The position numbers and the translations under genes were made by a program. DNA of 64,000 nucleotides from Oligoflexia bacterium (GTDB taxonomy: Bacteria > Bdellovibrionota_C > UBA2361 > JBGSMV01): positions 6,573 through 70,572 of the forward strand of contig JAIBBU010000007.1 of assembly GCA_019694515.1 (NCBI GenBank), in the 5' to 3' direction. Shown here in pieces: positions 22,825 through 55,291 of this stretch; positions within the stretch are counted from its first letter, which is position 1; every line of letters begins with the position of its first letter. The notes below the pieces were generated by a model. The model saw only the letters and a list, made by a program, of their open reading frames with translations. It was not told the origin of the DNA and ran no database searches.

Positions 22825-23311
22825 AAAACTCGTCCTGCATTTGGGATCAGACGATTGCCAGCTCGAGCATCACCGGTCGACCGATCTACGGTCTCCCGAT
22901 TAGTACGCAGCATTGTTCCCGAAACTCGGGCGGCTGCAGAGCAATGTTCCAAGGCTTGAAAAATCATCGAGCTAAGCGAAATAGAAATCTGATCCGGTTA
23001 AGGTTAAAAAGAAAAAACTCTCAAAGAAAAATCTATGCAATTCTACTCATTAGAATTTTTCGCCGTAGGTTTCTTGGAAGTACCGTCTGGACCGGCGGGG
23101 CCGAACCAGACATCAAGTGTACTCGTCCCAAGATTCCAGGGCTATCCGGACACCAATTGGCTGTCCGGAACCTGTGGAGTATACCTATAGATATAGGAGG
23201 ACAGAAGGGCCATCAAGTTTTCAGAAATAAAAGACGTTAATCCATTGAAATAACTTGCGGGAATCCTATCTGCCCCGAAAAACTAACGATTTACCCTATC
23301 GGTGTTCTATT

Positions 23312-23632
23312 ATGAGACTAGTTGTTTTACGTGGTTCAGGCCAGGGAAAGGCTTTTCAGTTGGAGCAGGGTAGCAATCTGATCGGTCGCTGGGATCCCGA
23401 CAGCGGGGCCTTCCCCGAGATCGACCTGGAGGAGGAAGACCCGGAAGCTAAGGTCTCCCGCAAACATGCGGTGATCGAATGTACGGGTGAAATGGTTACG
23501 ATTGAGGACCTGGGGAGCAGAAATGGTACCTATCTAAATCGCGACCAAAAGCTCGAACCCGGTAGGCAGTACGACCTGAAAGTTGGCGACGAGCTGATTG
23601 TAGGCAAGACTTTCTTGCGGTTCGAAAATTAG
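23312..23632 (+). CDS. FHA-domain protein (single domain, about 106 aa)
   Basis: MRLVVLRGSGQGKAFQLEQGSNLIGR...VSRKHAVIECTGEMVTIEDLGSRNGTYLN is a canonical FHA domain. The ORF could start at 23255 instead. Confidence 0.7.
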   Translation: MRLVVLRGSGQGKAFQLEQGSNLIGRWDPDSGAFPEIDLEEEDPEAKVSRKHAVIECTGEMVTIEDLGSRNGTYLNRDQKLEPGRQYDLKVGDELIVGKTFLRFEN

Positions 23633-23651
23633 CTTCCGGTCTGCAGCTATT

Positions 23652-24014
23652 TTATTTTAATAGCGTTTCGATGTGATTGACCAAAACCGCAGGTTTGCAC
23701 GGTTTGGTGAGCACTAAATTACATCCTGCATCCAGGGCTTCCTGATGAACCTCGGGGTCATCGAGCGCCGTGAACGCAACTATCGGCAGCTTCAGCCCTT
23801 TGGCTCTAATTTGCCGGACGCACTCTTGCCCATTCATCTTAGGCATCATCAGGTCGATCAGAATTATATCGGGACCGACTTCCTCAACGCACTGCAATGC
23901 TGAAATGCCGTCGGTGCGACGGACAACCTCAAAACCTTTATCTTCGAAAAGATAGTCAACGATATCGAGCGCCGTGAGGTCGTCGTCAATAATTAGTATT
24001 TTTTTATTATCCAT
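23652..24014 (-). CDS. CheY-like single-domain response regulator (receiver only)
   Basis: ILIIDDD...DIILIDLMMPKMNG...LTKP. The phospho-acceptor Asp and Lys are conserved. 120 aa. Confidence 0.85.
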   Translation of the reverse strand: MDNKKILIIDDDLTALDIVDYLFEDKGFEVVRRTDGISALQCVEEVGPDIILIDLMMPKMNGQECVRQIRAKGLKLPIVAFTALDDPEVHQEALDAGCNLVLTKPCKPAVLVNHIETLLK

Positions 24015-24406
24015 CTACGCCGATACGTTTTGCTAAAATTTAGACCACTTCTACTTATATCCTATTACTTGATGCGCGGGCGCGTGGGAAAGATCCAGCG
24101 GTAAATTCAGTAACGGCGCGAAACGAAGTTTTAACCACGAGCGCGCTTGGTATAAGCAAAATCCTGTTTAAATCTACAGATTTCCGGATCTTATTAACAA
24201 CACCGTGTCTCCTATATACAGTACAGCCCAAATGGGCTTTTTAGATACTAAGCTCCGGTTGCCAGGAATTGAGTGCTGAAGTCGTTGTCGAAGTAAGATT
24301 GCGGCGCCCCGCCTCATTCCGCGCTATGAGTCCTGCGGTTGTAACATAATCCGGGAAGCGCTTTAGTATCGCATTCCGAACTGTATTTTCAGTTTGGTCA
24401 TAAAAC

Positions 24407-25747
24407 ATGTTCGCACTTGAAATAGATTTTCGCGACGGCATCTCCGATCCGGAGACCATCTTCGTGCGCCGCCCGCACGCGCTGGTTGGCGCTTCCGACT
24501 ACGCGCATGTCGTGGTGGAGGACATGAAAGAGTTGGGATATCAAATCCGCTTAACTCGCGACCTGGGGCGCAGCTTTCGTTGTCGTTTAGTCTCAAACGA
24601 ACCGGTCGAGGCCGCGGCTCATCTTGAAGGGCTGTATGAGGGAGAGGCGCTGCTGGATACGGGCAGCGTAAAGCTCCGCATCACAGCGCTTGATACAGAT
24701 TTGGTGTTCAAGGACGGCGAAACCCCGGATAGTGCAGGCGCAAGGATTCTACGGCAGGCTTGTGCTGCAGGTAGTCCAACCTTTCCAGCATTGGTGGTGG
24801 CCGGAAGCTTTCCGCTCGTGATCTCTTTTTCCGAAGAGCAGCCGCTTTACCTCGGGCGCTCCAAGCAGTGCGTAGTGCGCTTTGATTCCTCCGAGATCTC
24901 CGCGCGGCATGCGCGGATGGGATTTGAAAACGGTAAATTCTGGATCGAGGATTTGGGTTCCACGAACGGGACCTTTGTAAATCAGCAGCAGGTATCCGGA
25001 AGAGTTAATGTCGAACCTGGAGCTCCGGTAACTCTGGGACGTGAGATCTCAATTGCGGGTGTGACTTCTCCGCAGGAGCTGGCGCAAGCGCTGCACGCAG
25101 AGGAGCCGCGCATCGATCGCAATGCGCCGCTGGCGAATAGATTTCCCGTGTTGATTTCCACCTCCGAAGTCGCCCGGCCAGCTCGAATGGTTTTAAGTGC
25201 CGGCGCAACGGTGACGATCGGGCGGGACCCATCCAGCGATATGTGGATTGGGGCTCCGCATGTATCGCGCAAGCACTGTGCGGTGTTCTTGCATGATAAC
25301 GGTACACTATCGGTCACCGACCACAGTACCAATGGGACCGCCTATACAGGCGGGGTCCTAAAACGTGGCAGCTCGATTCAGGTACGGGAAAGGCCGGAAA
25401 TCCTCGATTTGGGCAGCGGAGTGACGGTGGCGGTCTGTTTAAACGAGGAACAGGAGCGCGTCTTTATCGCTGCGCATGGCTCGCCGCTGGCTTTTGGCGA
25501 ACCTGAAAGAGACCTGCCCAAGCGGGAAAGCCCTGTCATCGCTCATGGCACCCGCTTTTCCGGAGAAGATACGATCTGGAATACCCAACAGATGCGGGCG
25601 CATATGGAGCGCAGCTTCGTGGTATGGCTGCTGGAATACTTCAGATCGTGCGGGTTTTTCGGACGGGCCGCTTTGTTTTGTCTCGTGTTCGCCTTTATAA
25701 TGGTTTTGGCTTTTATTGTATTGATTTTGGGACGCGTTTTCCTGTAG
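24407..25747 (+). CDS. Multi-FHA-domain protein with C-terminal TM anchor; candidate SctD (YscD/CdsD-like inner-ring component)
   Basis: Three FHA-like segments, e.g. LYLGRSKQCVVRF...ARHARMGFENGKFWIEDLGSTNGTFVN and VTIGRDPSSDMWIG...SRKHCAVFLHDNGTLSVTDHSTNGTAY. C-terminal hydrophobic helix FCLVFAFIMVLAFIVLILG. Sits at the head of the sctJ operon. Confidence 0.7.
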   Translation: MFALEIDFRDGISDPETIFVRRPHALVGASDYAHVVVEDMKELGYQIRLTRDLGRSFRCRLVSNEPVEAAAHLEGLYEGEALLDTGSVKLRITALDTDLVFKDGETPDSAGARILRQACAAGSPTFPALVVAGSFPLVISFSEEQPLYLGRSKQCVVRFDSSEISARHARMGFENGKFWIEDLGSTNGTFVNQQQVSGRVNVEPGAPVTLGREISIAGVTSPQELAQALHAEEPRIDRNAPLANRFPVLISTSEVARPARMVLSAGATVTIGRDPSSDMWIGAPHVSRKHCAVFLHDNGTLSVTDHSTNGTAYTGGVLKRGSSIQVRERPEILDLGSGVTVAVCLNEEQERVFIAAHGSPLAFGEPERDLPKRESPVIAHGTRFSGEDTIWNTQQMRAHMERSFVVWLLEYFRSCGFFGRAALFCLVFAFIMVLAFIVLILGRVFL

Positions 25748-25823
25748 CAGAAGGCTGCGCGCGGACCGCGTGAATTTTTGGTTTTTGCAGTTTTTGGTTT
25801 TCAGATAGTAACGGGAGAGAGTC

Positions 25824-26855
25824 ATGGCAACTGACAGTACTGAATTGACCTTCGTTCGATGCCCTTCATGCCGCAGCTTAGTGCCGGCTTCTCAGACACG
25901 CTGCCGGATGTGCGGTGCATCGCTGGATGCTGGAACCCAGCAGGGTGGCGATGATGCCGCGCGGAAGTCGGGACGAGTCAAGCAGCGTACTATGTCGCAG
26001 CCGCAAAGCGACTTAAATTCGGCTGCCGATCAGCTGCGCAAAGAGCATAAGAGCTCCGGTATGGAAGAGCTTCCGGATAGTGGCGATGAGATCTCAGTCG
26101 ATGATCCGTTGAGCGGATATGTCGAAGAAGTCGAGAGCGCCGAAACGGATGCGCCGGCTGAAGCCCCGGCGGCAAAGAGCGCTAATGGTGGCGGGTATGC
26201 ATCGCATGAACGGCCTAAAGAGGCTTCGCCGATGCCTCCCAAGCCGCGCGATGAGCAGAAACCGAAAGTATTCGCTGAGAGCGGTAGAAAGCAGAGTGGC
26301 GGTTTGTCCTTCAATAAGGAGCGATCCGAGCCGCCGGTTGCACGCAATTTGGCTTCCGCTGCCGAGTCTGACGATGCTTGGAGCAGTGTCAATGAAGAAT
26401 TACCGGTTGAAGAACCGGTGCGTGAGCCGCGTGCTTCACGTGAAAAGGAACAGCGCCACACACCGCCGTCAGCTGCGCCAGCTCGCGAAGGAGCTAAGAA
26501 GGCTGAGCAGCGCCCCGGCCGGCTCTTTGGGTGGCTGGTAAGCTATGCCAATCCGGATGGAAGCGCCTTAGAGCTGCGCGAAGGGAAGTTCTTCGTCACA
26601 GCCGGCAGCCTCAAGCCTAGTGATATGATCATTCAAGACCCTAGCATTTCGACTCCGCACGCTTTGGTCAACATCAGCGCGGCGCAGGGATTCGCAGTGC
26701 AGGACCTGATGAGCGATCGCGGTGTCTGGATTAGGCGTCGTGAAGGCGACACCTACCAGCGTGAGGAGAGTCTGCAGGTTAAGCATGGCGACTGGCTGCG
26801 GTTTGGTGATGTTGAGTACCTGGTGACTTTGATCGCACACGTCGGCGCGAAGTAA
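25824..26855 (+). CDS. Zinc-ribbon plus disordered linker plus C-terminal FHA-domain protein
   Basis: N-terminal CPSCRSLV...CRMCG zinc ribbon. Long Ala/Glu/Pro/Ser-rich low-complexity region. C-terminal FHA (GKFFVTAGS...SISTPHALVNISAAQGFAVQDLMSDRGVWI). Confidence 0.7.
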   Translation: MATDSTELTFVRCPSCRSLVPASQTRCRMCGASLDAGTQQGGDDAARKSGRVKQRTMSQPQSDLNSAADQLRKEHKSSGMEELPDSGDEISVDDPLSGYVEEVESAETDAPAEAPAAKSANGGGYASHERPKEASPMPPKPRDEQKPKVFAESGRKQSGGLSFNKERSEPPVARNLASAAESDDAWSSVNEELPVEEPVREPRASREKEQRHTPPSAAPAREGAKKAEQRPGRLFGWLVSYANPDGSALELREGKFFVTAGSLKPSDMIIQDPSISTPHALVNISAAQGFAVQDLMSDRGVWIRRREGDTYQREESLQVKHGDWLRFGDVEYLVTLIAHVGAK

Positions 26856-26978
26856 GAACGTGTGCCGAGGGGGCCCAAATGCTAAGCTTTGGGCTGCCCC
26901 TGACAATGCTCGGGTGGCCGGACGCTTGCGGTTGCGGCACCGGAAAATCTCTAGGAAAGAGAACGTCCTGGAACTGAA

Positions 26979-27854
26979 ATGGGTTATCGAACTAGGTTAA
27001 GCGCATTCAAGGCACTTCGCATCGGCGTCTTAGTCGGCGTTTTGCTGCTGATTTCGGGATGCAATACCTCCGTAGTGCTGAATGACCTCTCGCAGTCAGA
27101 AGCCTTGGAAGTCATAGCGGCGCTCAATGCCACCGGCATTAGCGCCTATTCAGCGGAAGATTCGGGCGCCCGGGGAAAATTTAGTGTGACCGTTGATTCA
27201 GCCCGCTATTCCGAAGCGGTCGCAATCATCAATGACAAACGGCTGCCGCGCCGCAGCGAATTTCGCAAGATGATTGAACCCAAAGGGCTGCTGCCGAATT
27301 CCCGCGAGCTTGAAGCGTTGCGGGTGGATAAGGCGCGCGCGATCGAACTTAAAGAACTTCTCGAGAATCATCCTGATATTGCCTCTGCCGAAGTCACGGT
27401 TCGTCAAAAATTTCTGGCTGAGGATGAAGCCCCCTCAGTTGGAGCTATGGTCGTAACGCGGTCCGGCTCGACGCTATCCACTGATCAGCTGCGCACGATG
27501 ATCCAAAGTTTCGTGCCCGGTATTAATCCTGAGCGGGTGGTCGTGGTTGCACACGCGCTGGATTCTTCAGGCAATGTGTTCAAGGCCGAAGGAATCCTGA
27601 ATGATAATCAGAAACTTATCCATGTGCCGCTAGCGGGCTTCCTGCTGGGTTGGCGTGTGGCTGAAGCCGATCAGAATGGATTGGCGATTACGATTGTGGC
27701 CTTCGTCCTGGCGGTAGGAATTCTAGGGGCAATTTTGGGTTACTCCTACGGTTCATTCAAACGTTCGGAAGATGCTTTAAATGATGCACTCCCGGAACCC
27801 GCAATTCGGGCGGGGCGCTTTGAACGACCGGTTAAGACTTTACCGGAGGAATAA
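26979..27854 (+). CDS. sctJ: Type III secretion inner-membrane ring lipoprotein SctJ (YscJ/EscJ/PrgK family)
   Basis: Signal peptide plus LISGC lipobox, then LSQSEALEVIAALNATGISA (compare YscJ [20 protein letters not shown]). About 290 aa with a C-terminal TM. A lipoprotein of this size argues against flagellar FliF. Confidence 0.85.
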   Translation: MGYRTRLSAFKALRIGVLVGVLLLISGCNTSVVLNDLSQSEALEVIAALNATGISAYSAEDSGARGKFSVTVDSARYSEAVAIINDKRLPRRSEFRKMIEPKGLLPNSRELEALRVDKARAIELKELLENHPDIASAEVTVRQKFLAEDEAPSVGAMVVTRSGSTLSTDQLRTMIQSFVPGINPERVVVVAHALDSSGNVFKAEGILNDNQKLIHVPLAGFLLGWRVAEADQNGLAITIVAFVLAVGILGAILGYSYGSFKRSEDALNDALPEPAIRAGRFERPVKTLPEE

Positions 27855-28073
27855 ATGGATTTGCAGCGTTTTCGAGCTCTATCAGAGAAAGATCGCGCCT
27901 TAGTGGCCGTGGCTGTATTAATGGATGGCCGCGATGCGGGTGTGTATTTGGAGAATGATGCTCAGAGCGGTGCGGTGTTAAAGCGGGCGGCGGATGACTT
28001 GGCAGCACAAGAACTCGAGCTGCGAATGACCTACGCTGCTACGCAGTTGCGGGCAGCGCTGAAGGAGGGGTAG
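27855..28073 (+). CDS. Small helical protein of the T3SS operon (function unknown; in the SctK/SctI position)
   Basis: 72 aa. Its ATG starts immediately after the sctJ stop (TAA at 27852-27854, ATG at 27855). Confidence 0.4.
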   Translation: MDLQRFRALSEKDRALVAVAVLMDGRDAGVYLENDAQSGAVLKRAADDLAAQELELRMTYAATQLRAALKEG

Positions 28074-28391
28074 GTGGATAGCCCCGAGCGGCGTGAGGAG
28101 ATTGCGGCATATATCGATAAGGTCAATGCGGAGCTGGCGAAGCGCCGCAAGCGGGTGCTGGAGCTGGAGAAGGAATTAAGTGATTTGCAGATGCAGGTAG
28201 AAGAGGCTGGTACAAAGATCAGAAGAGGGGTGGGGGATGCGGCCGTTGCCGCCGCTTCAGCCAGCTTTATGGCCTCCGTCGGCAAACGCCGTAAATTATT
28301 GGATGAGCAGTTAGGGGAGGCGCGCAGCGATGTACAACGAGCCGAGGATCGGCTTAGGACCGCCACCCAGGAAATGGATCAATTGAATTAG
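28074..28391 (+). CDS. Coiled-coil protein of the T3SS operon (candidate SctL/SctO, FliH/FliJ-like)
   Basis: 105 aa, charged heptad-repeat-rich. GTG start immediately after the upstream TAG, with GGAGGGG upstream. Confidence 0.45.
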   Translation: MDSPERREEIAAYIDKVNAELAKRRKRVLELEKELSDLQMQVEEAGTKIRRGVGDAAVAAASASFMASVGKRRKLLDEQLGEARSDVQRAEDRLRTATQEMDQLN

Positions 28392-28405
28392 GGAGCAACT
28401 TAGCC

Positions 28406-29434
28406 GTGAAGGCCCAAGCAGGAACGGACAGCGATATTTCAGTGGTACCTTGGGAGCCCGAGAAGACTCTTGAGAAGATGGCGCTGCTGCAGGCCAGGCT
28501 GTCGCGGGGGTTTTTGCGCTCTGACCCTTCGAAATGGTTCCCGGGATTTGCGATGCAGTGGATTCCGCTTACCAGCGCCTTCGGTGTTGAGCTGCAGATA
28601 CGAACTGTCGAGCCGGTGCTGGCCGCACCCCGCGGTTTGAGCGGCTACGTTGGTGCAGTGGACGATGAGCCGATTGCAGTGGGGATGGAAGATCGAGATG
28701 CGCGGCTGTTGACGGCAGCTTTCTGTAGTGGCGCACTGGCGGGAGCTCAGGGGGTCCTGCGGGAATATTTGGCGCGCCGCTTCATAACCAGCATGGCTTT
28801 ATCATGGAGCGGTCCCGAGTCTTCGGTGGTGACCTTTGATCGCAGCATGAATATGTCGCATATGCGCGAGTCGGCAGCGATTCGGATGGAACTCTTGGTC
28901 AATGATCAGGCCTGCAATCTATGGGTCTTGATGGGGAAATTTTTGGTTGAACGTTTGGACGCATTGTGGCGCAAACAGGTGCGTTCCACTGCGCGCCAGG
29001 AGTCCGGTGCAGCGCGCGAACTAGCTCTAGAGGTTACACAGTTAGCTGTGCCGCCTTCGCTTCTAGCGGAGTACATGAAGCCTCGGGCAATCATCGATCT
29101 CGAGACGATCGTCTCAGACCGGGTCTTGCTCCGCGAAGGCGGCAAGCCGCTTTCCTATGCGCGGTTGGTGAACATCGAGGGTCGCTACGGCATCTCCTTG
29201 CTAGACGAGCCGGTAGCCAACCCTAGACTGCCCGACGGTACTACCAGACTAGCTGTCGAGCTGGGGCGCATTGCGGTCGATGGCAATCAATCAGCGGAAT
29301 TTCTTCAGAATGGCGCAATCTGGGAGACCGGTCTGAAACTGGGTCCCGCGGCCAACATGGTAATAAACGATGAAAAGGTCGGCTCTGCCGAGCTGATGAT
29401 CTTTGAGGGGCGCTTTGCGCTGCGGGTAACCTAG
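28406..29434 (+). CDS. sctQ: Type III secretion cytoplasmic-ring protein SctQ (YscQ/FliN/FliM family; C-terminal SpoA domain)
   Basis: The C-terminus LQNGAIWETGLKLGPAANMVINDEKVGSAELMIFEGRFALRVT is a FliN/SpoA-type domain. A second SpoA-like segment lies upstream (VLLREGGKPLSYARLVNIEGRYGISLL). Confidence 0.7.
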   Translation: MKAQAGTDSDISVVPWEPEKTLEKMALLQARLSRGFLRSDPSKWFPGFAMQWIPLTSAFGVELQIRTVEPVLAAPRGLSGYVGAVDDEPIAVGMEDRDARLLTAAFCSGALAGAQGVLREYLARRFITSMALSWSGPESSVVTFDRSMNMSHMRESAAIRMELLVNDQACNLWVLMGKFLVERLDALWRKQVRSTARQESGAARELALEVTQLAVPPSLLAEYMKPRAIIDLETIVSDRVLLREGGKPLSYARLVNIEGRYGISLLDEPVANPRLPDGTTRLAVELGRIAVDGNQSAEFLQNGAIWETGLKLGPAANMVINDEKVGSAELMIFEGRFALRVT

Positions 29435-29526
29435 TTCTCGGTCGAGCGCTTTGAATCAATCTGCATTTGTCAGCCACACCCCTTAAGTGGGTAGCCTCAA
29501 AAGTTGCGATTGCTTATAGTTGAAGC

Positions 29527-30111
29527 ATGGATGGCTTTCTGCAGTCGCTGCTGGCAATTTTAGTCTTCACCGGCTTTGTTAAGATCTTCACAGCTCTGTG
29601 TATTGCGCGCTACGGTCTGGGCCTCGATCAAGCGGGCTTCGGCATCGTCATCGGAGTTTTGGCTTTGGCCCTCTCGATCTTCGCAGTGGAGCCGCAGCTT
29701 AGGCCCTATGGGGGCTGGAGCATCCTGAATGGTGGTGAAAACCAGAAGGTAGATCTGCCTAGGACCTTTACGCCGTTCTTGGTCAAGCATTCGGATGCGA
29801 AAATTATTTCGGAACTTGAAAAGCTGCGCCCAAATTCCGAAGGGCAAAAGAACGACACACCGGAGTTCTCATTACTGACAGTGAGTTTTTTGCTGAGTGA
29901 GTTGAAATCAGCATTCGAAATTGGGCTGTTACTTCTCATTCCGCTGATCATCATCGATCTTTTAACCTCCAATATTTTAATGGCGCTGGGTATGCAGCAG
30001 CTTTCCCCGGCGTTGGTCTCCCTGCCGATTAAGTTGCTGCTATTCTTAGCGCTGGATGGCTGGACTCTGTTTAGCGAAAAGCTGCTCAATTCATATACGG
30101 GGGCTGGATAA
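29527..30111 (+). CDS. sctR: Type III secretion export-apparatus protein SctR (YscR/FliP family)
   Basis: LIPLIIIDLLTSNILMALGMQQLSPALVSLPIKLLLFLALDGW matches the FliP/YscR signature (...GMMMLSP...PFKLLLFVLVDGW). No cleavable signal peptide, as in non-flagellar SctR. Confidence 0.85.
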   Translation: MDGFLQSLLAILVFTGFVKIFTALCIARYGLGLDQAGFGIVIGVLALALSIFAVEPQLRPYGGWSILNGGENQKVDLPRTFTPFLVKHSDAKIISELEKLRPNSEGQKNDTPEFSLLTVSFLLSELKSAFEIGLLLLIPLIIIDLLTSNILMALGMQQLSPALVSLPIKLLLFLALDGWTLFSEKLLNSYTGAG

Positions 30112-30366
30112 ATGGACGCCGTATTATACAGCATGTTTATTGAGGCTATTCGCGTACTGCTGTTGGTCGGGGTGCCATCGGCGCTGCTGATCGGCTGTGC
30201 AGGGGTATTGGCTGGCGCGTTTCAGAGCGTTACCTCGATTCACGATCCGGCGATTGGCTACACTGCGCGGCTGCTGGCGCTGATTGCGGCGTTGTATTTC
30301 TTGGGCGGATTTTTTTGGGAACGGGTGCGGAACCTGCTTGAGCAGGCACTGCTCGCACAGTCATGA
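30112..30366 (+). CDS. sctS: Type III secretion export-apparatus protein SctS (YscS/FliQ family)
   Basis: 84 aa, two TM. Overall FliQ-like pattern (AIRVLLLVGVPSALLIGCAGVLAGAFQSVTSIHDPAIGY). ATG immediately follows the sctR stop. Confidence 0.8.
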   Translation: MDAVLYSMFIEAIRVLLLVGVPSALLIGCAGVLAGAFQSVTSIHDPAIGYTARLLALIAALYFLGGFFWERVRNLLEQALLAQS

Positions 30367-30980
30367 TCTTAGAAATCTCATTGCTGACGATGCTGCTCGG
30401 CGGCGCCCTGTTGTTCGGAATGTGGCCGGGACTGGTGATGTTAGCGGGGACTTTTGCCTACGCCGCCTCTCAGTACCATCCCGCTGCCGTTGGTCTGGTA
30501 GTCTTAACCTGTGCCGCGGTGACGGCGGTTCCGCTTAGTGCCGCAGTGTGCGGTGCCGCGCTCGAGCGCCATACTTTTGTGCATGTGCGACGTAATGGGC
30601 AGCTGAATGCGCTGGTCCTTGCCACTGCTACAACCGCATTCTTGCAGACAGGGCTGCCGGTTTCCTTTTTCACTGTGATTGAACGTGCGCAATTGCATGG
30701 CAAAGCGCTCGATTATGGGCAGGCTATCGCAGGGATTATCAGCGCCGCACTGTCAGTCGGTTCATTTGCCGCGCTGCTAATCATGGGTGTCGTATTGCTG
30801 GCAGAGGTGCCGCTAGTGATTGCCGGCCGCATCGGAGAATTTAAAGCAGACCATCACATCACACTTTTTCGGCCGCTGCTTGTGGTATTTGTGCTTTCCA
30901 TGGCGATGAACCTCTTGCTGGGCTTGTTTTTCGAGGAGCTCGCACCGTTACGCATTTTGCCGCTGGGGAATCAACCATGA
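30363..30980 (+). CDS. sctT: Type III secretion export-apparatus protein SctT (YscT/FliR family), short form
   Basis: 205-aa polytopic membrane protein in the canonical R-S-T-U position. ATGA overlaps on both sides. Confidence 0.6.
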   Translation: MILEISLLTMLLGGALLFGMWPGLVMLAGTFAYAASQYHPAAVGLVVLTCAAVTAVPLSAAVCGAALERHTFVHVRRNGQLNALVLATATTAFLQTGLPVSFFTVIERAQLHGKALDYGQAIAGIISAALSVGSFAALLIMGVVLLAEVPLVIAGRIGEFKADHHITLFRPLLVVFVLSMAMNLLLGLFFEELAPLRILPLGNQP

Positions 30981-31639
30981 GCGAGAGGACGGAATGGCCG
31001 ACTGCTGCCAAGCTGGGAGAACTAAGGGAGCGCGGTTTAGTGCCGGTCAGCAGGCTGGCGCTTTGGTCTGGCGCGTTAATCGGCTGTGTTATTGCAGTCT
31101 TTGTTCTAGGCAGCACCTGGAATTTCCCGCAGCGCTGGCTGGAAATTGGTGCGGCGACCCAAGCAGATTCTCCGAATCTAATGGCCGAGCTAGCGGCGCA
31201 TCAGGGCGAGATAGTTAAACTGTTATGTCTGCCGGCTTTGGGAGCAGCTCTCTTGGTAATCCTTGCGGGGGTAGTTCAAACCCGCTTTCTTTTCAGGCCT
31301 GCCACGCTCGCGCCTCAGGGTGAGCGGTTGTGGAACCCAGCAGCAGCAAGCTTTGCAAGGCCCATTGCCCGCCCCCTATCGGCGGTGCTCTGGCTGGTGC
31401 TTGGAATTTTTTGTGGATTCCTGCTTTTTAGTTCGCAGTCGGCGCTGCTCTTAGGACTGCTAAATCAGAGCGTTGCTCCGGGGATTGCCCGGCTGACCGA
31501 CATGCTGAAGAGCTATGCCTTGATCGCCGCAGCGGCTGCTTTGGCAGGGGCTATTCTTGGTTGGATTGCGGCACGCCTCATTTTTATGCTGAGACATCGC
31601 ATGACTCGCCGTGAGGTGCAAAGCGAGGTTGGTGAGTAA
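30977..31639 (+). CDS. sctU: Type III secretion SctU (YscU/FlhB family), membrane domain only; lacks the C-terminal autocleaving (NPTH) domain
   Basis: The N-terminus RTEWPTAAKLGELRERGLVPVSRLA matches the FlhB/YscU N-terminus (KTEAPTPKRL...G.VPKS.EL). Four TM segments. The ORF ends at RMTRREVQSEVGE, equivalent to the MSKQEVKDE linker that normally precedes the cytoplasmic domain. Confidence 0.7.
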   Translation: MSERTEWPTAAKLGELRERGLVPVSRLALWSGALIGCVIAVFVLGSTWNFPQRWLEIGAATQADSPNLMAELAAHQGEIVKLLCLPALGAALLVILAGVVQTRFLFRPATLAPQGERLWNPAAASFARPIARPLSAVLWLVLGIFCGFLLFSSQSALLLGLLNQSVAPGIARLTDMLKSYALIAAAAALAGAILGWIAARLIFMLRHRMTRREVQSEVGE

Positions 31640-31708
31640 CTCGGTGTAATTTGTGGCTTTGCCTGATCTGGCCGCCCCGAGCTATCATCAGCCTGAGTTA
31701 GTAGAACC

Positions 31709-31966
31709 ATGAAACGCAGCATATTTGACCCCCCTGAAGCCTTCTCGTTGTCCCCGCTACTCGCATTGCTGCCGCAAAAAGGACAGCTCTCAAAATTAGA
31801 GACCCTCTCGGCTTCGCTCTTTGCCCGCTATGAAAGGGTTACAGGGCTGCTGGGCGAGATTGCGGCGGGCTCCTCCCCTGAGTTAGAAACCCGTCTTTCG
31901 CGGGAGCAAAATATGCTGCGCCAGGTCTTGGAGTGGCTCAACATTAAGCCCGAAGGTCAGGCATGA
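31709..31966 (+). CDS. Small hypothetical protein, ATGA-coupled to the TPR chaperone gene (candidate chaperone partner or substrate)
   Basis: 85 aa. Its stop overlaps the next start. No needle (SctF) signature. Confidence 0.4.
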   Translation: MKRSIFDPPEAFSLSPLLALLPQKGQLSKLETLSASLFARYERVTGLLGEIAAGSSPELETRLSREQNMLRQVLEWLNIKPEGQA

Positions 31967-32397
31967 ACCAGGTGCGTCCGCGAGTGCCCTCTGAAATCCT
32001 GAAGCGCGGTTATACCGACGACGAAATCGCGAACATTTACGAATTAGGCCGGCTATTCTTAGAGAATGGCGATCTAAGACGCGGTGAGACGATTATGTTG
32101 GGCTTGCTGGAGATCATGGGCGAATACTCACCGGCCTGGTTAGCCATGAGTTACATTCATTTTGCGAACAAGGCCACCGAGTCGGCAGTAAACGCGGCGC
32201 AAAACGCGTTGAAGCACGATCCCGAAAGTGTCGAAGCCATGTTGGCCCTGGTGGCGGGGCTTCTTACTCTGGGCGACTTTAATAGCGCCGGTACATATCT
32301 GGGTGAGGTGGGTGAGAAATTAGACGCCGGACTTAGCGACGATCCGCGAGTCGTACGTTTCTATAAGGCCATGCTGGCGCGTTATCAAAATCGCTGA
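31963..32397 (+). CDS. TPR-repeat protein, candidate T3SS class II chaperone (SycD/LcrH/CesD-like)
   Basis: 144 aa. Three TPR-like helical hairpins (GDLRRGETIMLGLLEI...; AWLAMSYIHFANKATESAVNAAQNAL; AMLALVAGLLTLGDFNSAGTYL). Size and location are typical of translocator chaperones. Confidence 0.55.
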   Translation: MNQVRPRVPSEILKRGYTDDEIANIYELGRLFLENGDLRRGETIMLGLLEIMGEYSPAWLAMSYIHFANKATESAVNAAQNALKHDPESVEAMLALVAGLLTLGDFNSAGTYLGEVGEKLDAGLSDDPRVVRFYKAMLARYQNR

Positions 32398-33045: not shown

Positions 33046-33092
33046 GCGACACTTGGCGATCGTTTTACAGTAATTCGCAGCGAACGGCCGCG

Positions 33093-33443
33093 CTATTTTT
33101 TGGATTTAGGATCGGTCGCTTCTTGCGCGGACATCAATCCGATATCCACGGCCATCTTCACGGCATTGACGACTTTTTGCTTGTTGGCATTAGAGGCCGA
33201 CTTCCCGAACATGTCTTCGGCTTCTTCCTCGATCAGCCGCAGGAGCTCTTCGCGCTCGGCCATAGTCATGGAACGGGTTGCCCCGCGCTTACCAATGCCG
33301 CCGGCCTTGGTTACACCCCCGATGGCGGAGGTTGGCTTGATCCCCTGAACATTCCCGACAGCTTGAGTACCCTCAACCTCGGTCGCCCGGTTGGTGGAGG
33401 TTACCTCACCGACTTTTTTCTTATCGCCGATCTTTTTGGTCAT
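33093..33443 (-). CDS. Small hypothetical protein downstream of the sigma factor (candidate anti-sigma/FlgM-like, speculative)
   Basis: Start at MTKKIGDKKK, with GGAGGA 5 nt upstream. Disordered Gly/Thr-rich N-terminal half and helical C-terminal half (MTMAEREELLRLIEEEAEDMF...). Confidence 0.45.
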   Translation of the reverse strand: MTKKIGDKKKVGEVTSTNRATEVEGTQAVGNVQGIKPTSAIGGVTKAGGIGKRGATRSMTMAEREELLRLIEEEAEDMFGKSASNANKQKVVNAVKMAVDIGLMSAQEATDPKSKK

Positions 33444-33453
33444 CTGTTCCTCC

Positions 33454-34251
33454 TCATCCACTCCGCAGCAAGCGCCGGAACTCTCCCTGTTCAGACTTCT
33501 TTCGTAACTTTATCGCAACTTGCTTCAGTCCGGGACGTACTTTTACGGCTGTGCGCCGTTTGCCCTTCGATAGGCTTTCAAGCAGATGCTCCAAAAGCAC
33601 TTTATGTTCTCTAATTACATTTAATTCGTCCGTTTCCCACTCATCGGCGACGTTACGTAGCGAGCAGCCCTCCCAGTAGATCTTCCAAATCAGGGATTGA
33701 TGAACGGGGTCCATGTCAGCCACCACTTCGATCATCTTCTTGTAATCAAGGGCTTCCTCAGGAGTGGCAGTAGCCAGACCCTGCCGCGCGGCGATCAAGG
33801 TGGCGCCGATCAAGAGTTGTCGGACCGCCATGCGGGTATCGGCTTCATCATTACCTGAGGATTCGTCGCTCAGCGGCAGCTGTCCGGTTCGTAAGTCCGG
33901 ATAGACATTTAATAATTCAGCAGAAATCTCGCGGGTTTGAACTTCCGCGCGTGAACCGCTGCGCCAGCCGCGTGATTTTCGCGCGGCTTCAGTTGAGGCT
34001 TCATGAATGCGCTTGCGCGCATAGCCGCGGAAAGGCACTCCCCGGGAGGGTTGGAAGCGGCGCGCACAGAACAGCAGCGCCTCCATAGCGGCTCCATCCA
34101 GCCCGTCCAGCTGCCAGTCCAAATTCCAGCCCCGGGCGACCGACCGGGCGATACTTTCGGCCCAGCCACGATGCTCCAGCGCCAGCTGATCAGCTTCCTC
34201 AATCGGGAGGGTAGGATGTTGACCCACTGTCGAAGGCGTTTTTGTCTGCAT
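33454..34251 (-). CDS. Sigma-70 family RNA polymerase sigma factor (sigma-28/FliA-like; regions 2 and 4)
   Basis: Region 2: ADQLALEHRGWAESIARSV...DGLDGAAMEALLFCARRFQPSRGVPFRGYARKRIHEA. Region 4: SLIWKIYWEGCSLRNVADEWETDELNVIREHKVLLEHL. Start chosen at MQTKTPS (34251); the ORF extends to 34374. Confidence 0.65.
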   Translation of the reverse strand: MQTKTPSTVGQHPTLPIEEADQLALEHRGWAESIARSVARGWNLDWQLDGLDGAAMEALLFCARRFQPSRGVPFRGYARKRIHEASTEAARKSRGWRSGSRAEVQTREISAELLNVYPDLRTGQLPLSDESSGNDEADTRMAVRQLLIGATLIAARQGLATATPEEALDYKKMIEVVADMDPVHQSLIWKIYWEGCSLRNVADEWETDELNVIREHKVLLEHLLESLSKGKRRTAVKVRPGLKQVAIKLRKKSEQGEFRRLLRSG

Positions 34252-34559
34252 ATCCGCTAAGTTAACTGATGCTGGAAAGCTCTCCTCGGACTCTAGCTTA
34301 TTAGATCCATCTCCGGCCAGCCGGGGAGCGGATAAGTTGCGGAACCGATGTGACTTATCTCCCCGATAATTCAATTAATTCAATAAGTTAACAAAAAACT
34401 GAAGTGCTTATACGTATTCGGCTGATAGGTGGCAAGAGGACCTGTTACGCCCTGCAACGGGAGGTTTGGGCGGACATCTTCTCGACAGTACGTCCTCGCA
34501 ACGTACCGAGTTCGAAAAGGGAAAGCTCACTTCCGGTTGTCAGTTAGGAGATGGAATCA

Positions 34560-35459
34560 ATGCCTGCAAGTAATCTCAAAGTAAAAGATTTCGATCATGC
34601 AGTTGACGCCAAGCGCGCCGTTGTTAAGACAGCGAAGAGCGCGAAGGTCGTTTCGCTTTTCAAAGCTCCCCGCGCCGGCATTCTAACCCAGCGTCAAAAA
34701 GATAATTTAGTTATCACTTACCAGATCAAAGCTCGTAAGATGGCATTTAGCATTTTGCGTCGCTGGCATTCGCGTCTGGATCTGCAGGAAGTTCACAGCA
34801 TCGTAGATCTATCGCTGTGTGAGGCCGTTAAGCATTTCAATCCCACCAAGGGTGCGAGCTTCTTGACCTTCCTGTTCTACCATCTGCGCGGCAATTTGAT
34901 TCGCGCCGTAACAACCGCGGCTAAACTGAATGCAATTCCGCTGAGCGATCTGGATCCGATGCAGCCCGAGGATCAAGATTCTGCGAAGCAATCTGATGGA
35001 CGTGGTATCAGTGCCGCAGAGGTAGCCGACGCGCTTTCGAGCCGCGAAGCACCGCTGCCCGATGAGGTCTTGGCTCGTAAAGAATTGATCAGAGCAAGTT
35101 TGGATGCGTGTCAGAAGCTGGATACGCTGGAGCGTGAAGTCCTGTTCAGAATCTTCTTGCAGGAAGAGCAGCTGCTGGATGTCGCGGCTTCGCTTGGTTA
35201 CAGCCGCTGCCATATCTCACGGGTTAAGCGCCGTGCATTAGAAAGTTTATACGGCGAGGTATGTCGCGCCGTGTATGGCGAGGAAGGAGCATCGATGAAA
35301 CGGCCTGAGGTGGAGGAGTTAGAGGCGGTAGCAACACGCCGTCCAATTCACCGCCGTAAGCCGCGCGCCGGAATGAAGGCCGGCAAGTTCAGAGCGAGTG
35401 CTGGTGCGCTTAAGCGTTCGATGGATAAGGCAAATTCAATTGTAGCAGCCTATTCCTAA
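34560..35459 (+). CDS. Sigma-70 family RNA polymerase sigma factor (sigma-28/FliA-like), divergent from the upstream one
   Basis: Region 2: ITYQIKARKMAFSILRRW...EVHSIVDLSLCEAVKHFNPTKGASFLTFLFYHLRGNLIRAV. Region 4: LDTLEREVLFRIFLQEEQLLDVAASLGYSRCHISRVKRRALESL. AGGAG lies 9 nt before the ATG at 34560. Confidence 0.7.
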   Translation: MPASNLKVKDFDHAVDAKRAVVKTAKSAKVVSLFKAPRAGILTQRQKDNLVITYQIKARKMAFSILRRWHSRLDLQEVHSIVDLSLCEAVKHFNPTKGASFLTFLFYHLRGNLIRAVTTAAKLNAIPLSDLDPMQPEDQDSAKQSDGRGISAAEVADALSSREAPLPDEVLARKELIRASLDACQKLDTLEREVLFRIFLQEEQLLDVAASLGYSRCHISRVKRRALESLYGEVCRAVYGEEGASMKRPEVEELEAVATRRPIHRRKPRAGMKAGKFRASAGALKRSMDKANSIVAAYS

Positions 35460-35722
35460 TCCGATCGAAATGGTGTTATATAAGCCCGCCGCTATGAATC
35501 AGAAGGGTTCGTAGCGGCGGTTGCTTTATGAGGGTGTCTACAGCTCAGACCCCGACGAAAGTTTCAGATCGGCTCTGGTCAACTCACCGCGGATGGGACT
35601 TATAATGGGTAAAGTTTGAGGTATTTTTTGTGACGATCTTCGAATTATTCGCATTTGTCTGCGCGGGTGCCATGGTGCTCACCATGGTATTCGGCGGCTG
35701 GTCTTAAAGCGATCACCATCCA

Positions 35723-40812: not shown

Positions 40813-40998
40813 GGGGGCCCTCTCGGGAATGATTATTCTAGTCGAAGTACTGCTTCCAACTGTATCTAGTTAACATCTTAATATTGAGCATGAATTAGGC
40901 TTCGCCCTGCCGGATTGCAGGGCCGCCAGATTTAAGGCTTATTGGCAGCTTGCCGATATAACTATATTATCTTCATTTACTGGAGGTTTTGTTATTCG

Positions 40999-55284: not shown

Positions 55285-55291
55285 TGCGCAG

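What the first reader, a model, noticed from the sequence alone, without database searches (positions are those of the whole stretch)
33093..35459. Two divergently transcribed sigma-28-like sigma factors immediately downstream of the T3SS block, one followed by a small candidate anti-sigma
Both ORFs show clear sigma-70 regions 2 and 4 of the FliA/WhiG-like size class. They flank a 300-bp divergent promoter region. The 116-aa protein downstream of the minus-strand sigma factor has a disordered N-terminal half and a helical C-terminal half, as FlgM does. Paired FliA-like sigma factors next to a non-flagellar T3SS suggest dedicated transcriptional control, analogous to chlamydial sigma-28 or flagellar FliA/FlgM export-coupled regulation.
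Basis: partly seen in the sequence, partly recalled or inferred. Interest (0 to 1): 0.55.

Follow-up and report, generated by a model that had tools for sequence, protein, structure and literature searches.

The report
Paired sigma-28-like factors with partner protein
This is a three-gene regulatory cassette kept in about 80 uncultured Bdellovibrionota species: two diverged flagellar-type (sigma-28-like) sigma factors, each with its own conserved promoter, plus a small half-disordered protein that is probably an anti-sigma factor. Its link to the neighbouring type III secretion genes rests on position alone.

Summary
Window 33093-35459 carries a 116-aa ORF and a 265-aa sigma-like ORF on the minus strand, then 299 bp of spacer, then a 299/302-aa sigma ORF on the plus strand.

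Both large proteins are group-3, sigma-28-like factors, not ECF. They are paralogues of each other, and both score far below the curated FliA/WhiG cut-off.

The cassette is conserved in about 80 species-level MAGs of an uncultured Bdellovibrionota lineage:
- The divergent sigma pair is present in 74 of 80 loci.
- The small ORF follows the minus-strand sigma in 76 of 76 assessable loci, often with overlapping stop and start codons.

The spacer holds two conserved sigma-28-class promoters with the same spacing:
- TGAAGCA-N13-GCGGATAAG points at the plus-strand sigma. It occurs in 65 of 75 species and in the window at 34399-34429.
- The second promoter, TTAAG-N17-CCGATA, points at the minus-strand sigma. 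It occurs in about 35 of 75 species but not in the window.

The small protein has FlgM's layout (residues 1-54 disordered, then two C-terminal helices) but no detectable homology to FlgM.

T3SS genes lie next to the cassette in 32 of 47 loci. Neither promoter type occurs upstream of T3SS genes. Dedicated or export-coupled T3SS control is therefore possible but unsupported.

The parts
33093..33443 (-). 'small': a 116-aa protein with a disordered, pattern-conserved N-terminal half and a C-terminal helical hairpin. It is the candidate anti-sigma or partner of sigM.
   Evidence: ORF. 100% identical to P0241, which NCBI names 'hypothetical protein'. An HMM finds it immediately after sigM in 76 of 76 assessable loci, one copy each. 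The gap to the sigM stop runs from -23 to +87 nt and is often a 4-nt ATGA overlap. AF2 gives pLDDT below 50 over most of residues 1-54 and helices at 61-82 and 85-103. The family has 224 representatives at 50% identity among 1.84 billion proteins; the 150 listed are 57-161 aa. No FlgM match was found.
33454..34251 (-). 'sigM': a 265-aa diverged sigma-28-like sigma factor. It is annotated 'hypothetical protein' in NCBI.
   Evidence: ORF. The start at M42 of the maximal ORF is supported by the alignment of 37 homologues. All 37 members hit FliA_WhiG TIGR02479 (best E 2.7e-8) and 34 of 37 hit FliA PRK06986, all far below the cut-offs. The AF2 model has pLDDT 83.9. Foldseek PDB ranks 1-13 include sigma-28/FlgM 1rp3 and 1sc5, WhiG 6pfj and 6pfv, SigB and P. 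aeruginosa sigma-28; ECF sigmas rank lower. In the ungapped alignment to P. aeruginosa FliA it keeps Y76, R80, D87 (as Glu), R90 and K91 (residue roles for Y76, R80 and D87 from PMC12784957).
34252..34550 (.). Divergent regulatory spacer between sigM and sigP (299 bp).
   Evidence: Sequence. The divergent arrangement is kept in 74 of 80 species-level loci. k-mer enrichment in the orthologous spacers: TGCCGATA in 23 of 75 (0.3 expected) and TGCTTCAG in 18 of 75 (0.4 expected).
34399..34429 (+). P_sigP ('M2'), a sigma-28-class promoter variant: CTGAAGTG-N13-GCTGATAGG. Family consensus is tttttcTGAAGCA-N13-gC(g/a)GATAAGgGgGTg. It sits about 120 nt upstream of the sigP start.
   Evidence: First found by a regular expression with a fixed 21-nt offset. 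The refined model scores above 12 in 65 of 75 spacers. It is the only hit in the window (25.9, against a shuffle maximum averaging 9.2). In 1.15 Mb of loci, 63 of 64 hits at score >=18 lie upstream of sigP; the 64th lies where sigP is cut off by a contig end. The core model at >=15 gives 72 observed against 1 in shuffles.
34551..35459 (+). 'sigP': a 302-aa (or 299-aa from 34560) sigma-28-like sigma factor. It has a basic N-terminal extension and a conserved basic C-terminal tail (RRxIHRRRPRSK).
   Evidence: Pfam Sigma70_r2 and Sigma70_r4 are above their cut-offs. The best specific NCBIfam matches are SigBFG (4e-12) and FliA_WhiG (1.3e-9), both far below cut-off. The family profile against PDB gives FliA 1rp3 (9.6e-8), FliA 9wsm (3e-7), SigF and WhiG. 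Family alignment. In the alignment to P. aeruginosa FliA it has F, H and R at Y76, R80 and D87.
35486..35520 (+). Terminator-like hairpin 27 nt after the sigP stop codon.
   Evidence: 15-pair stem with 9 G-C pairs and a 5-nt loop, followed by TTGCTTTATG. This is a consensus match only.
23255..32397 (+). Context: the neighbouring non-flagellar T3SS block, convergent with sigM-small. It holds three sctD-like FHA proteins, sctJ, an SctO/FliJ-like coiled coil, sctQ, sctR, sctS, a putative sctT, a truncated sctU, an 85-aa ORF and a TPR chaperone-like protein. A response regulator lies on the minus strand at 23652-24014.
   Evidence: Pfam. Homologous genes lie within 10 kb downstream of 'small' in 32 of 47 loci that have at least 6 kb of flank.
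40932..40958 (+). Sigma-28-type promoter TTAAG-N16-CCGATA, 40 nt upstream of a 128-aa ORF of unknown function (ATG 40999 to 41385). It is evidence that the window organism has a sigma-28-type regulon.
   Evidence: PWM hit. ORF. A similar site lies 33-63 nt upstream of the orthologues in L003, L005, L008, L009 and L013. The ORF has no Pfam match. The site matches the B. bacteriovorus attack-phase consensus TTAAG-N16-CCGATA (PMC3627812).

Best explanation
The region is a self-contained two-sigma regulatory cassette of the sigma-28 class. It is specific to an uncultured Bdellovibrionota lineage.

Shown:
- sigM and sigP are paralogous, strongly diverged sigma-28-like factors.
- The small protein is always encoded directly behind sigM.
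- Each sigma gene is preceded by a conserved two-block promoter of the sigma-28 type. Both have the form T(A/G)AAG-N17-C(C/G)GATA.

Inferred:
- sigM keeps FliA's -10-reading residues. It reads the canonical promoters (TTAAG-N16/17-CCGATA): its own operon in about half the species, and the 128-aa gene at 40999 in the window.
- The small protein binds sigM and holds it inactive, as FlgM does for FliA, so the sigM-small operon feeds back on itself.
- sigP has changed -10-reading residues (R80 to His, D87 to Arg). It reads the variant promoter with G or A in place of C at -13, which occurs only in front of sigP itself, so sigP is autoregulated.
- The regulon lies mostly elsewhere in the genome. 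By analogy with B. bacteriovorus, where FliA drives the attack-phase programme, it is probably a life-cycle or motility programme rather than the neighbouring T3SS operon specifically.
For: Sigma identity and class:
- Pfam and NCBIfam matches.
- PDB profile hits to FliA, SigF and WhiG.
- AF2 model plus Foldseek hits to sigma-28/FlgM and WhiG.
- Paralogy by hhalign: E 5e-6 over 204 columns.

Conservation:
- 80 species-level loci.
- The divergent pair in 74 of 80.
- The small ORF in 76 of 76 assessable loci, with frequent stop/start overlap.

Promoters:
- k-mer enrichment in the spacers.
- 35 CCGATA sites aligned in register upstream of sigM.
- M2 in 65 of 75 spacers, including the window.
- At score >=18, M1 occurs only at sigM (29 of 29). 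M2 occurs at sigP in 63 of 64 hits across 1.15 Mb; the 64th is where a contig end cuts off sigP.
- M1 and M2 share the same 24-nt offset from the T of TAAAG/TGAAG to GATA (sites listed).
- The canonical motif equals the B. bacteriovorus attack-phase FliA consensus (PMC3627812). Its blocks match the P. aeruginosa fliC -35 and -10 elements (PMC12784957).
- A conserved canonical site precedes the 128-aa gene in the window's own clade.

Residue inference:
- Alignments to P. aeruginosa FliA, combined with the roles of Y76, R80 and D87.

Small protein layout:
- AF2 prediction.
Against: - No binding, transcription or secretion data exist. Which sigma reads which promoter rests on a few aligned residues, and the sigM alignment to FliA scores only 13 bits.
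- The window itself has no canonical promoter upstream of sigM, so sigM autoregulation is not universal.
- An orthodox FliA encoded elsewhere in these genomes could read the canonical promoters. I could not inspect whole genomes.
- The small protein has no detectable homology to any anti-sigma factor. Its AF2 model is of low confidence (pLDDT 56, from an alignment of 8 sequences).
- The promoter models were trained on the very sites they score, so absolute scores are inflated.
- The Foldseek E-values are weak (6e-3 at best), because the domain orientations differ.
Confidence: 0.55

Rival explanations
1. The sigma pair is the dedicated transcriptional control of the adjacent non-flagellar T3SS. 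The small protein is an anti-sigma factor exported through that T3SS, so secretion competence releases the sigma factor. This would copy FliA/FlgM, or Bordetella BtrS/BtrA.
For: - T3SS genes lie within 10 kb downstream of 'small' in 32 of 47 species, against 19 of 41 for unrelated genes on the other side.
- The small protein has a conserved, disordered N-terminal half, as T3SS substrates and FlgM do.
- Weak TyeA (T3SS gatekeeper) hits occur in 4 of 108 members.
- A secreted anti-sigma factor in an injectisome system has precedent in BtrA/BtrS (PMC10732220 and PMC7498569).
Against: - Neither promoter type occurs upstream of any T3SS gene, in the window or in 1.15 Mb of related loci.
- The cassette is intact in 13 of 47 loci with no T3SS gene within 10 kb and in L003.
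- The T3SS operon and sigM-small are convergent and are separated by variable unrelated genes, such as DUF2585 in the window. The distance from the sigM match to the nearest T3SS gene has a median of 3.5 kb.
- The window's T3SS block lacks sctV, sctN and sctC, and its SctU lacks the C-terminal switch domain.
- The TyeA hits are at chance level.
Confidence: 0.2
2. sigM-small is simply the lineage's very diverged flagellar FliA-FlgM pair. It would be exported by the flagellar T3SS and control late flagellar genes. sigP would be an extra paralogue, and the injectisome-like neighbours would be irrelevant.
For: - A canonical sigma-28 promoter precedes sigM-small in about 35 of 75 species, as is known for fliA and flgM.
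- sigM keeps FliA's Y76, R80, D87(E), R90 and K91.
- The best structural match is the sigma-28/FlgM complex.
- JGI names some members of both families FliA.
- Cultured Bdellovibrionota are flagellated (established knowledge).
Against: - sigM scores 27 bits against a FliA_WhiG cut-off of 190, and NCBI leaves it as 'hypothetical protein'.
- The small protein fails the FlgM model, whereas true FlgMs pass it.
- Pfam scans of the main ORFs found no flagellar gene in the window. The related loci were compared only with window proteins, so flagellar genes there were not looked for.
- Whether these organisms have flagella or an orthodox fliA could not be checked.
Confidence: 0.2
3. The small protein is not an anti-sigma factor. 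It could be a positive cofactor or chaperone of sigM, or an unrelated small protein that merely shares the operon.
For: It has no homology to any known anti-sigma factor. Only the operon link ties it to sigM.
Against: Adjacency holds in 76 of 76 loci, often with overlapping stop and start codons, across species whose sigM identity to the window falls to 45%. That pattern is typical of stoichiometric partners. The size and the disordered-plus-helical layout match FlgM-type anti-sigma factors.
Confidence: 0.15

Closest known systems
FliA (sigma-28) / FlgM of flagellated bacteria (structures 1rp3, 1sc5, 9wsf, 9wsm, 6pmi)
   Same: - Group-3 sigma fold.
- Best sequence and structure matches for both sigM and sigP.
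- TAAAG / GCCGATA-type promoter blocks.
- sigM keeps the -10-reading Y, R and acidic residues.
- A partner protein of about 110 aa with a disordered N-terminal half and a helical C-terminal half.
   Different: - Both sigmas score 27-38 bits against a family cut-off of about 190.
- There are two paralogues, arranged head to head.
- The partner has no FlgM homology and is fused into an operon with the sigma factor.
- The promoter spacer is 1-2 bp longer than in E. coli or P. aeruginosa.
- sigP has extra basic N- and C-terminal extensions.
- Pfam scans of the window's main ORFs found no flagellar genes.
Bdellovibrio bacteriovorus FliA (Bd3318) as global attack-phase regulator (PMC3627812)
   Same: - Same phylum.
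- Near-identical promoter consensus (TTAAG-N16-CCGATA), found here at the 128-aa gene and, with N17, at sigM.
- It shows that sigma-28 in this phylum controls much more than flagella.
   Different: - Bd3318 is annotated as an ordinary FliA, and the paper describes no paired paralogue or operonic partner protein.
- Orthology of sigM or sigP to Bd3318 could not be tested here.
Bordetella BtrS (ECF sigma) / BtrA (T3SS-secreted anti-sigma) and Pseudomonas syringae HrpL
   Same: A sigma factor encoded at a non-flagellar T3SS locus.
   Different: - Those sigmas are ECF (group 4); these are group 3.
- Those sigmas' promoters precede the T3SS operons; here no shared promoter is found at T3SS genes.
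- There is no sequence relationship.
WhiG / RsiG of Streptomyces and chlamydial sigma-28
   Same: Sigma-28-family factors re-used for non-flagellar developmental programmes. WhiG structures are among the top fold matches to sigM.
   Different: - RsiG needs c-di-GMP and is a coiled-coil protein unrelated to 'small'.
- Chlamydiae have no FlgM-like partner.
- Neither system has a divergent paralogue pair.

Membership tests
FliA/WhiG sigma-28 family (NCBIfam TIGR02479) | Scores above the curated family cut-off (189.6 bits). | tested here: not met
   sigM scores 26.7 bits and sigP 38.1 bits. All 37 sigM relatives hit the model, but with a best E-value of only 2.7e-8.
FliA/WhiG sigma-28 family (NCBIfam TIGR02479) | Three-domain group-3 architecture (sigma2-sigma3-sigma4, without region 1.1). 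| tested here: met
   For sigM, the AF2 model (pLDDT 83.9) has helical segments between regions 2 and 4, and Foldseek aligns 229-245 columns to the 226-235 residue sigma-28 chains of 1rp3. For sigP, regions 2 and 4 pass Pfam, and a linker of about 65 aa, partly conserved, lies between them. No Sigma70_r3 hit was obtained, so the result for sigP alone is less certain.
FliA/WhiG sigma-28 family (NCBIfam TIGR02479) | The -10-reading residues of region 2.3/2.4 (P. aeruginosa Y76, R80 and D87; PMC12784957). | tested here: inconclusive
   sigM has Y, R and E at these positions (conservative). sigP has F, H and R (changed). Both readings come from ungapped HMMER alignments to 9wsm_F, and the sigM alignment is low-scoring.
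FliA/WhiG sigma-28 family (NCBIfam TIGR02479) | Associated TAAAG...GCCGATAA promoters. | tested here: met
   A canonical motif lies upstream of sigM in about 35 of 75 species and upstream of the 128-aa gene in the window's clade. A variant lies upstream of sigP in 65 of 75. Which protein reads them was not tested.
FliA/WhiG sigma-28 family (NCBIfam TIGR02479) | Controls late flagellar or motility genes. | not testable with these tools
   Pfam scans of the window's main ORFs found no flagellar gene.
FlgM anti-sigma-28 (Pfam PF04316) | Sequence match to the FlgM C-terminal domain. | tested here: not met
   None of 108 family members hits FlgM at E <= 10. hhalign against a FlgM alignment gives probability 0.4% over 12 columns. 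The three FlgM controls all match PF04316.
FlgM anti-sigma-28 (Pfam PF04316) | About 100 aa, with an intrinsically disordered N-terminal half and a helical C-terminal half. | tested here: met
   Locus ORFs are 103-142 aa. AF2 gives pLDDT below 50 over most of residues 1-54 and helices at 61-82 and 85-103.
FlgM anti-sigma-28 (Pfam PF04316) | Binds and inhibits its sigma-28, and is exported by a T3SS. | not testable with these tools
   Only the genetic link is available: the ORF lies directly downstream of sigM in 76 of 76 loci.
ECF (group 4) sigma factors | Two-domain sigma2-sigma4 architecture with a short linker, and best matches to ECF subfamilies. | tested here: not met
   The best specific matches are FliA/WhiG and SigBFG. 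ECF structures rank below group-3 sigmas in Foldseek (6dv9 at E 1.5; 1or7 at E 2.7). TIGR02937, despite its name, is a generic sigma-70-family model.
T3SS-dedicated sigma/anti-sigma systems (HrpL; BtrS-BtrA) | The sigma factor's promoter motif precedes the T3SS operons. | tested here: not met
   No M1 or M2 site above background lies upstream of sctD, sctJ, sctQ or the chaperone genes, in the window or in the related loci.
T3SS-dedicated sigma/anti-sigma systems (HrpL; BtrS-BtrA) | The sigma gene is encoded within or beside the T3SS cluster. | tested here: inconclusive
   It is adjacent in 32 of 47 species and absent within 10 kb in 13. Unrelated neighbours are retained in 19 of 41.

The most novel reading that the evidence does not exclude
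An injectisome-coupled sigma-28 checkpoint in uncultured predatory-type bacteria. The FlgM-like small protein would be exported through the neighbouring non-flagellar T3SS and so free sigM. sigM and its re-specified paralogue sigP, each with its own promoter variant, would then form a two-sigma switch driving a biphasic life cycle. This would be the first FliA/FlgM-style export checkpoint transplanted from the flagellum to an injectisome with a group-3 sigma factor.
Probability: 0.15. Interest if true: 0.75.

Novelty: new variant of a known kind. Interest (0 to 1): 0.45.

Why it matters
Sigma-28 with FlgM is the textbook example of gene expression coupled to the assembly of a secretion machine. 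In Bdellovibrio, sigma-28 has already been co-opted as the master regulator of the attack phase.

Here a whole uncultured Bdellovibrionota lineage carries two re-specified sigma-28 paralogues. Their promoters are cleanly separable, differing at one base of the -35 block and one base of the -10 block. They come with an obligatory partner protein from a family unrelated in sequence to FlgM.

This gives a natural, readily testable case of how sigma specificity and anti-sigma partners diverge after duplication. It also supplies defined promoter motifs for mapping the regulon in metagenomes. If the T3SS link turned out to be real, it would extend export-coupled transcription to injectisomes that use a group-3 sigma factor.

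Tried and rejected
- T3SS promoter search. I ran k-mer enrichment upstream of the sctD-like, FHA2, sctJ, sctQ and 85-aa genes in up to 37 loci. I also ran full and core PWM scans and a flexible-spacer regular expression, and read 22800-23280 and 23990-24420 by eye. No M1- or M2-like promoter appeared. The single regex hit upstream of the L016 sctD-like gene is at background rate.
- FlgM homology of the small protein: rejected.
- TyeA and DUF7645 hits to the small protein are weak, in 4 and 14 of 108 members at E around 0.003-0.1. I treated them as chance.
- A T3SS needle-protein reading of the small helical hairpin: rejected. The C-terminal tail is variable and acidic, and the link to sigM holds even where no T3SS gene is nearby.
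- A riboswitch or sRNA in the long sigP leader: no Rfam family at the gathering threshold in the window, and only chance-level hits in 32900-35800.
- A generic sigma-70 promoter scan of 32900-35800 found fewer sites than in shuffles.
- A conserved sigM promoter in the window's own clade: none shared by all 31 spacers that lack M1. By eye, some near relatives show a sigma-70-like TGGATy-N17-TAnnnT; the window does not fit it.
- The CCCCGATAA at 34361-34369 and the GCGGATAAG at 34328-34336 on the plus strand have no -35 partner at the family spacing. I set them aside as probable remnants or chance.
- Looking up the window's sigP (302-aa form) by exact sequence found nothing. The 299-aa form lies only on two short ENA contigs.
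- I could not walk along the long contigs to look for fliA, flagellar genes or sctV/N/C.


Full report
**1. What is there**

The reported interval holds three ORFs.
- The small ORF is 33093-33461(-). Read from the ATG at 33443 it gives the 116-aa product that public gene callers report (P0241).
- The sigma-like ORF is 33454-34374(-). An alignment of 37 homologues places its start at the ATG at 34251, giving 265 aa (P0121, which NCBI names 'hypothetical protein').
- The sigma ORF is 34551-35459(+): 302 aa, or 299 aa from 34560. A ribosome-binding site AGGAG at 34546-34550 fits the 34560 start better (P0001, 'sigma-70 family RNA polymerase sigma factor').

I call the three products small, sigM and sigP. 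All three are 100% identical to proteins of an 'Oligoflexia bacterium' MAG.

**2. Surroundings**

A non-flagellar T3SS block lies upstream, on the plus strand and convergent with sigM-small. It holds:
- three FHA/YscD-type proteins (23255, 24407, 25824);
- an SctJ-size lipoprotein (26979);
- an SctO/FliJ-like coiled coil (28074);
- SctQ (28406), SctR (29527) and SctS (30112);
- a putative SctT (30363);
- an SctU that is only the N-terminal membrane domain (30977; 220 aa);
- an 85-aa ORF and a TPR chaperone-like protein (31963).

A DUF2585 gene (32446-33045) separates the block from 'small'. Pfam scans of the window's main ORFs found no sctV, sctN, sctC or flagellar gene. Downstream of sigP lie a PMT-type glycosyltransferase, MgtC, Ham1 and an FNR-like reductase.

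**3. Are they sigma factors, and of which class?**

sigP:
- It passes Pfam Sigma70_r2 and Sigma70_r4.
- Its best specific NCBIfam matches are SigB/F/G and FliA/WhiG.
- Its family profile finds FliA (1rp3 at 9.6e-8; 9wsm at 3e-7), then SigF and WhiG, among solved structures.

sigM:
- Alone it is sub-threshold.
- All 37 relatives hit FliA_WhiG, and 34 hit FliA PRK06986.
- Its AlphaFold model is confident (pLDDT 83.9).
- The best Foldseek matches are the Aquifex sigma-28/FlgM complex, WhiG, SigD, SigB and P. aeruginosa sigma-28, aligned over 229-245 columns. ECF sigmas rank lower.
- The Foldseek E-values are weak (6e-3 at best), because the relative domain orientation differs.

The two families align with each other over 204 columns (hhalign E 5e-6). 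They share idiosyncratic motifs: ARS(I/V)xRxW, and PDE ahead of region 4. They are therefore paralogues.

Neither is a member of the curated FliA/WhiG family: they score 27 and 38 bits against a cut-off of 190.

**4. Conservation**

A scan of one genome per species found 80 loci. All are uncultured Bdellovibrionota, variously labelled Bdellovibrionales, Deltaproteobacteria, Oligoflexia or 'Dadabacteria' MAGs.
- The divergent sigP/sigM arrangement is present in 74 of them. The rest are cut off by contig ends.
- A family HMM finds 'small' immediately after sigM in 76 of 76 loci where sequence is available, one copy each.
- The gap to the sigM stop codon runs from -23 to +87 nt and is often a 4-nt ATGA overlap.
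- In a library of 1.84 billion representatives, the small family has 224 members. The 150 listed are 57-161 aa, and no larger family is attached.

**5. The spacer holds two promoters of the sigma-28 class**

k-mer counts over the 75 orthologous spacers singled out TGCCGATA (23 spacers, 0.3 expected) and TGCTTCAG (18, 0.4 expected).

M1:
- Aligned on CCGATA, 35 sites oriented towards sigM and lying within 200 nt of it give cT(T/A)AAGgTTT...tGCCGATA, that is TTAAG-N17-CCGATA.
- This is the sigma-28 consensus. P. aeruginosa fliC has TCTAAAG at -36 to -30 and GCCGATAA at -15 to -8 (PMC12784957).
- The B. bacteriovorus attack-phase consensus is TTAAG-N16-CCGATA (PMC3627812).

M2:
- On the other strand, pointing at sigP, a second motif reads tttttcTGAAGCA-N13-gC(g/a)GATAAGgGgGTg.
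- It scores above 12 in 65 of 75 spacers.
- Its offset from the T of TGAAG to GATA is 24 nt, exactly as in M1 (sites).
- M2 therefore has the same architecture as M1, with G instead of A at position 2 of the -35 block and G or A instead of C at -13.

In the window:
- M2 is at 34399-34429 (CTGAAGTG-N13-GCTGATAGG), about 120 nt upstream of sigP. It is the only hit in 64 kb (score 25.9, against a shuffle maximum averaging 9.2).
- The window and its nearest relatives have no M1 upstream of sigM. I found no alternative promoter shared by that clade.
- A TTAAG-N16-CCGATA site sits 40 nt upstream of a 128-aa gene of unknown function (ATG at 40999). A similar site is kept at about the same distance in five relatives. 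So the window organism does use sigma-28-type promoters.

Specificity:
- In 1.15 Mb of related loci, both strands, M1 at score >=18 occurs only upstream of sigM (29 of 29 hits).
- M2 at score >=18 occurs upstream of sigP in 63 of 64 hits. The 64th lies where a contig end cuts off sigP.
- Because the models were trained on these sites, I repeated the scan with core columns only. The excess over shuffles is again explained by sigM and sigP.

**6. Which sigma reads which promoter (inference)**

The basis is the ungapped HMMER alignments to P. aeruginosa FliA. The paper gives these roles: Y76 stacks on the flipped -11A, R80 contacts -12G, and D87 contacts -13C.
- sigM has Y, R and E at those positions. 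It also keeps R90 and K91, whose roles were not looked up here.
- sigP has F, H and R, all invariant in its family.
- The Asp-to-Arg change sits opposite the very base that differs between M1 (C) and M2 (G or A).

I therefore assign M1 to sigM and M2 to sigP. This rests on a few aligned residues, and the reverse assignment (cross-regulation) is not excluded. An orthodox FliA elsewhere in the genome could also read M1.

**7. The small protein**

- AlphaFold predicts disorder for residues 1-54 and two helices at 61-82 and 85-103. Confidence is low overall (pLDDT 56) and moderate in the helices.
- The N-terminal half is nevertheless conserved in pattern: MTKKIG.KKIGGV, followed by V residues recurring at intervals of 3-6.
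- No member of the family matches FlgM or any solved anti-sigma factor.
- A profile-profile comparison with FlgM gives 0.4% probability.
- The resemblance to FlgM is therefore one of layout and genetic context, not of family membership.
- The strict, often overlapping, operonic link to sigM is the main argument for a stoichiometric partner, most simply an anti-sigma factor.

**8. The T3SS link**

- Homologues of the window's T3SS genes lie within 10 kb downstream of 'small' in 32 of 47 loci with enough flank. They are absent in 13. The distance from the sigM match to the nearest T3SS gene ranges from 0.4 to 7.2 kb.
- In L003, a 187-kb contig, the cassette and its other-side neighbours are kept without any T3SS gene in the 20.9-kb locus read.
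- The unrelated genes on the sigP side are retained in 19 of 41 loci. T3SS adjacency is thus somewhat better conserved than background synteny, but not strikingly.
- No M1- or M2-like site precedes any T3SS gene.
- The export-coupled model has a real precedent in Bordetella BtrS/BtrA (PMC10732220 and PMC7498569). Here it rests on position and on the FlgM-like layout only.

**9. Verdict**

The most likely reading is a lineage-specific two-sigma cassette of the sigma-28 class, with a cognate partner protein and self-directed promoters.

Its regulon is probably a broader life-cycle or motility programme, as in Bdellovibrio, rather than the neighbouring T3SS operon. I rate it a new variant of a known kind and of moderate interest. 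The T3SS-coupled reading keeps about a 15-20% chance and would be considerably more interesting if it proved true.

Noticed in passing
window 30977-31639 (+), and the whole T3SS block 23255-32397: The SctU/FlhB homologue is only 220 aa and covers positions 2-219 of the 335-position Bac_export_2 profile. It lacks the C-terminal autocleaving switch domain, and the following 85-aa ORF has no NPTH motif. Pfam scans of the window's main ORFs found no sctV, sctN or sctC. The block starts with three FHA/YscD-type proteins.
   Followed up: partly
window 40932-40958 (+), and ORF 40999-41385 (+): A sigma-28-type promoter (TTAAG-N16-CCGATA) lies 40 nt upstream of a 128-aa protein with no Pfam match. A similar site sits at about the same distance in orthologues in L003, L005, L008, L009 and L013. 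The gene is a likely member of the sigma-28-type regulon.
   Followed up: partly
window 35300-35459 (+) (sigP C-terminus), and 34551-34700 (sigP N-terminus): The sigP family carries a conserved basic C-terminal tail (RRxIHRRRPRSK) after a variable acidic linker, and a basic N-terminal extension of about 45 aa. Neither is usual for sigma-28-type factors.
   Followed up: no
window 34328-34336 and 34361-34369 (+): GCGGATAAG and CCCCGATAA are two further -10-like blocks in the spacer, oriented towards sigP, with no -35 partner at the family spacing. They may be remnants of older promoters, or chance matches.
   Followed up: partly
related loci L005, L006, L010, L013, L019 (sigM upstream regions): In several close relatives that lack the sigma-28 promoter, the sigM upstream region shows a sigma-70-like TGGATy-N17-TA(g/t)nnT arrangement. 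The window does not fit it. I saw this by eye only.
   Followed up: no
related loci L035, L040, L062: A strict sigma-28-type site (T[TA]A[AT]G-N15-18-[CT]CGATA) precedes a gene of about 806 aa in three loci (48 nt upstream in L035). The gene was not annotated. It may be another regulon member.
   Followed up: no
window 53172-56656 (+): A DUF4350 / MoxR AAA+ ATPase / DUF58-VWA gene cluster (BatA-like), preceded by a DUF2298 membrane protein at 49562-51667.
   Followed up: no
window 32970-33614 (+): A 214-aa ORF runs antisense across 'small' and the 3' end of sigM. It overlaps two conserved genes and is almost certainly spurious.
   Followed up: no
window 23652-24014 (-): A stand-alone response-regulator receiver gene sits between the first and second FHA genes of the T3SS block, divergent from the sctD-like gene. 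It is a more obvious candidate for local T3SS regulation than the sigma cassette.
   Followed up: no
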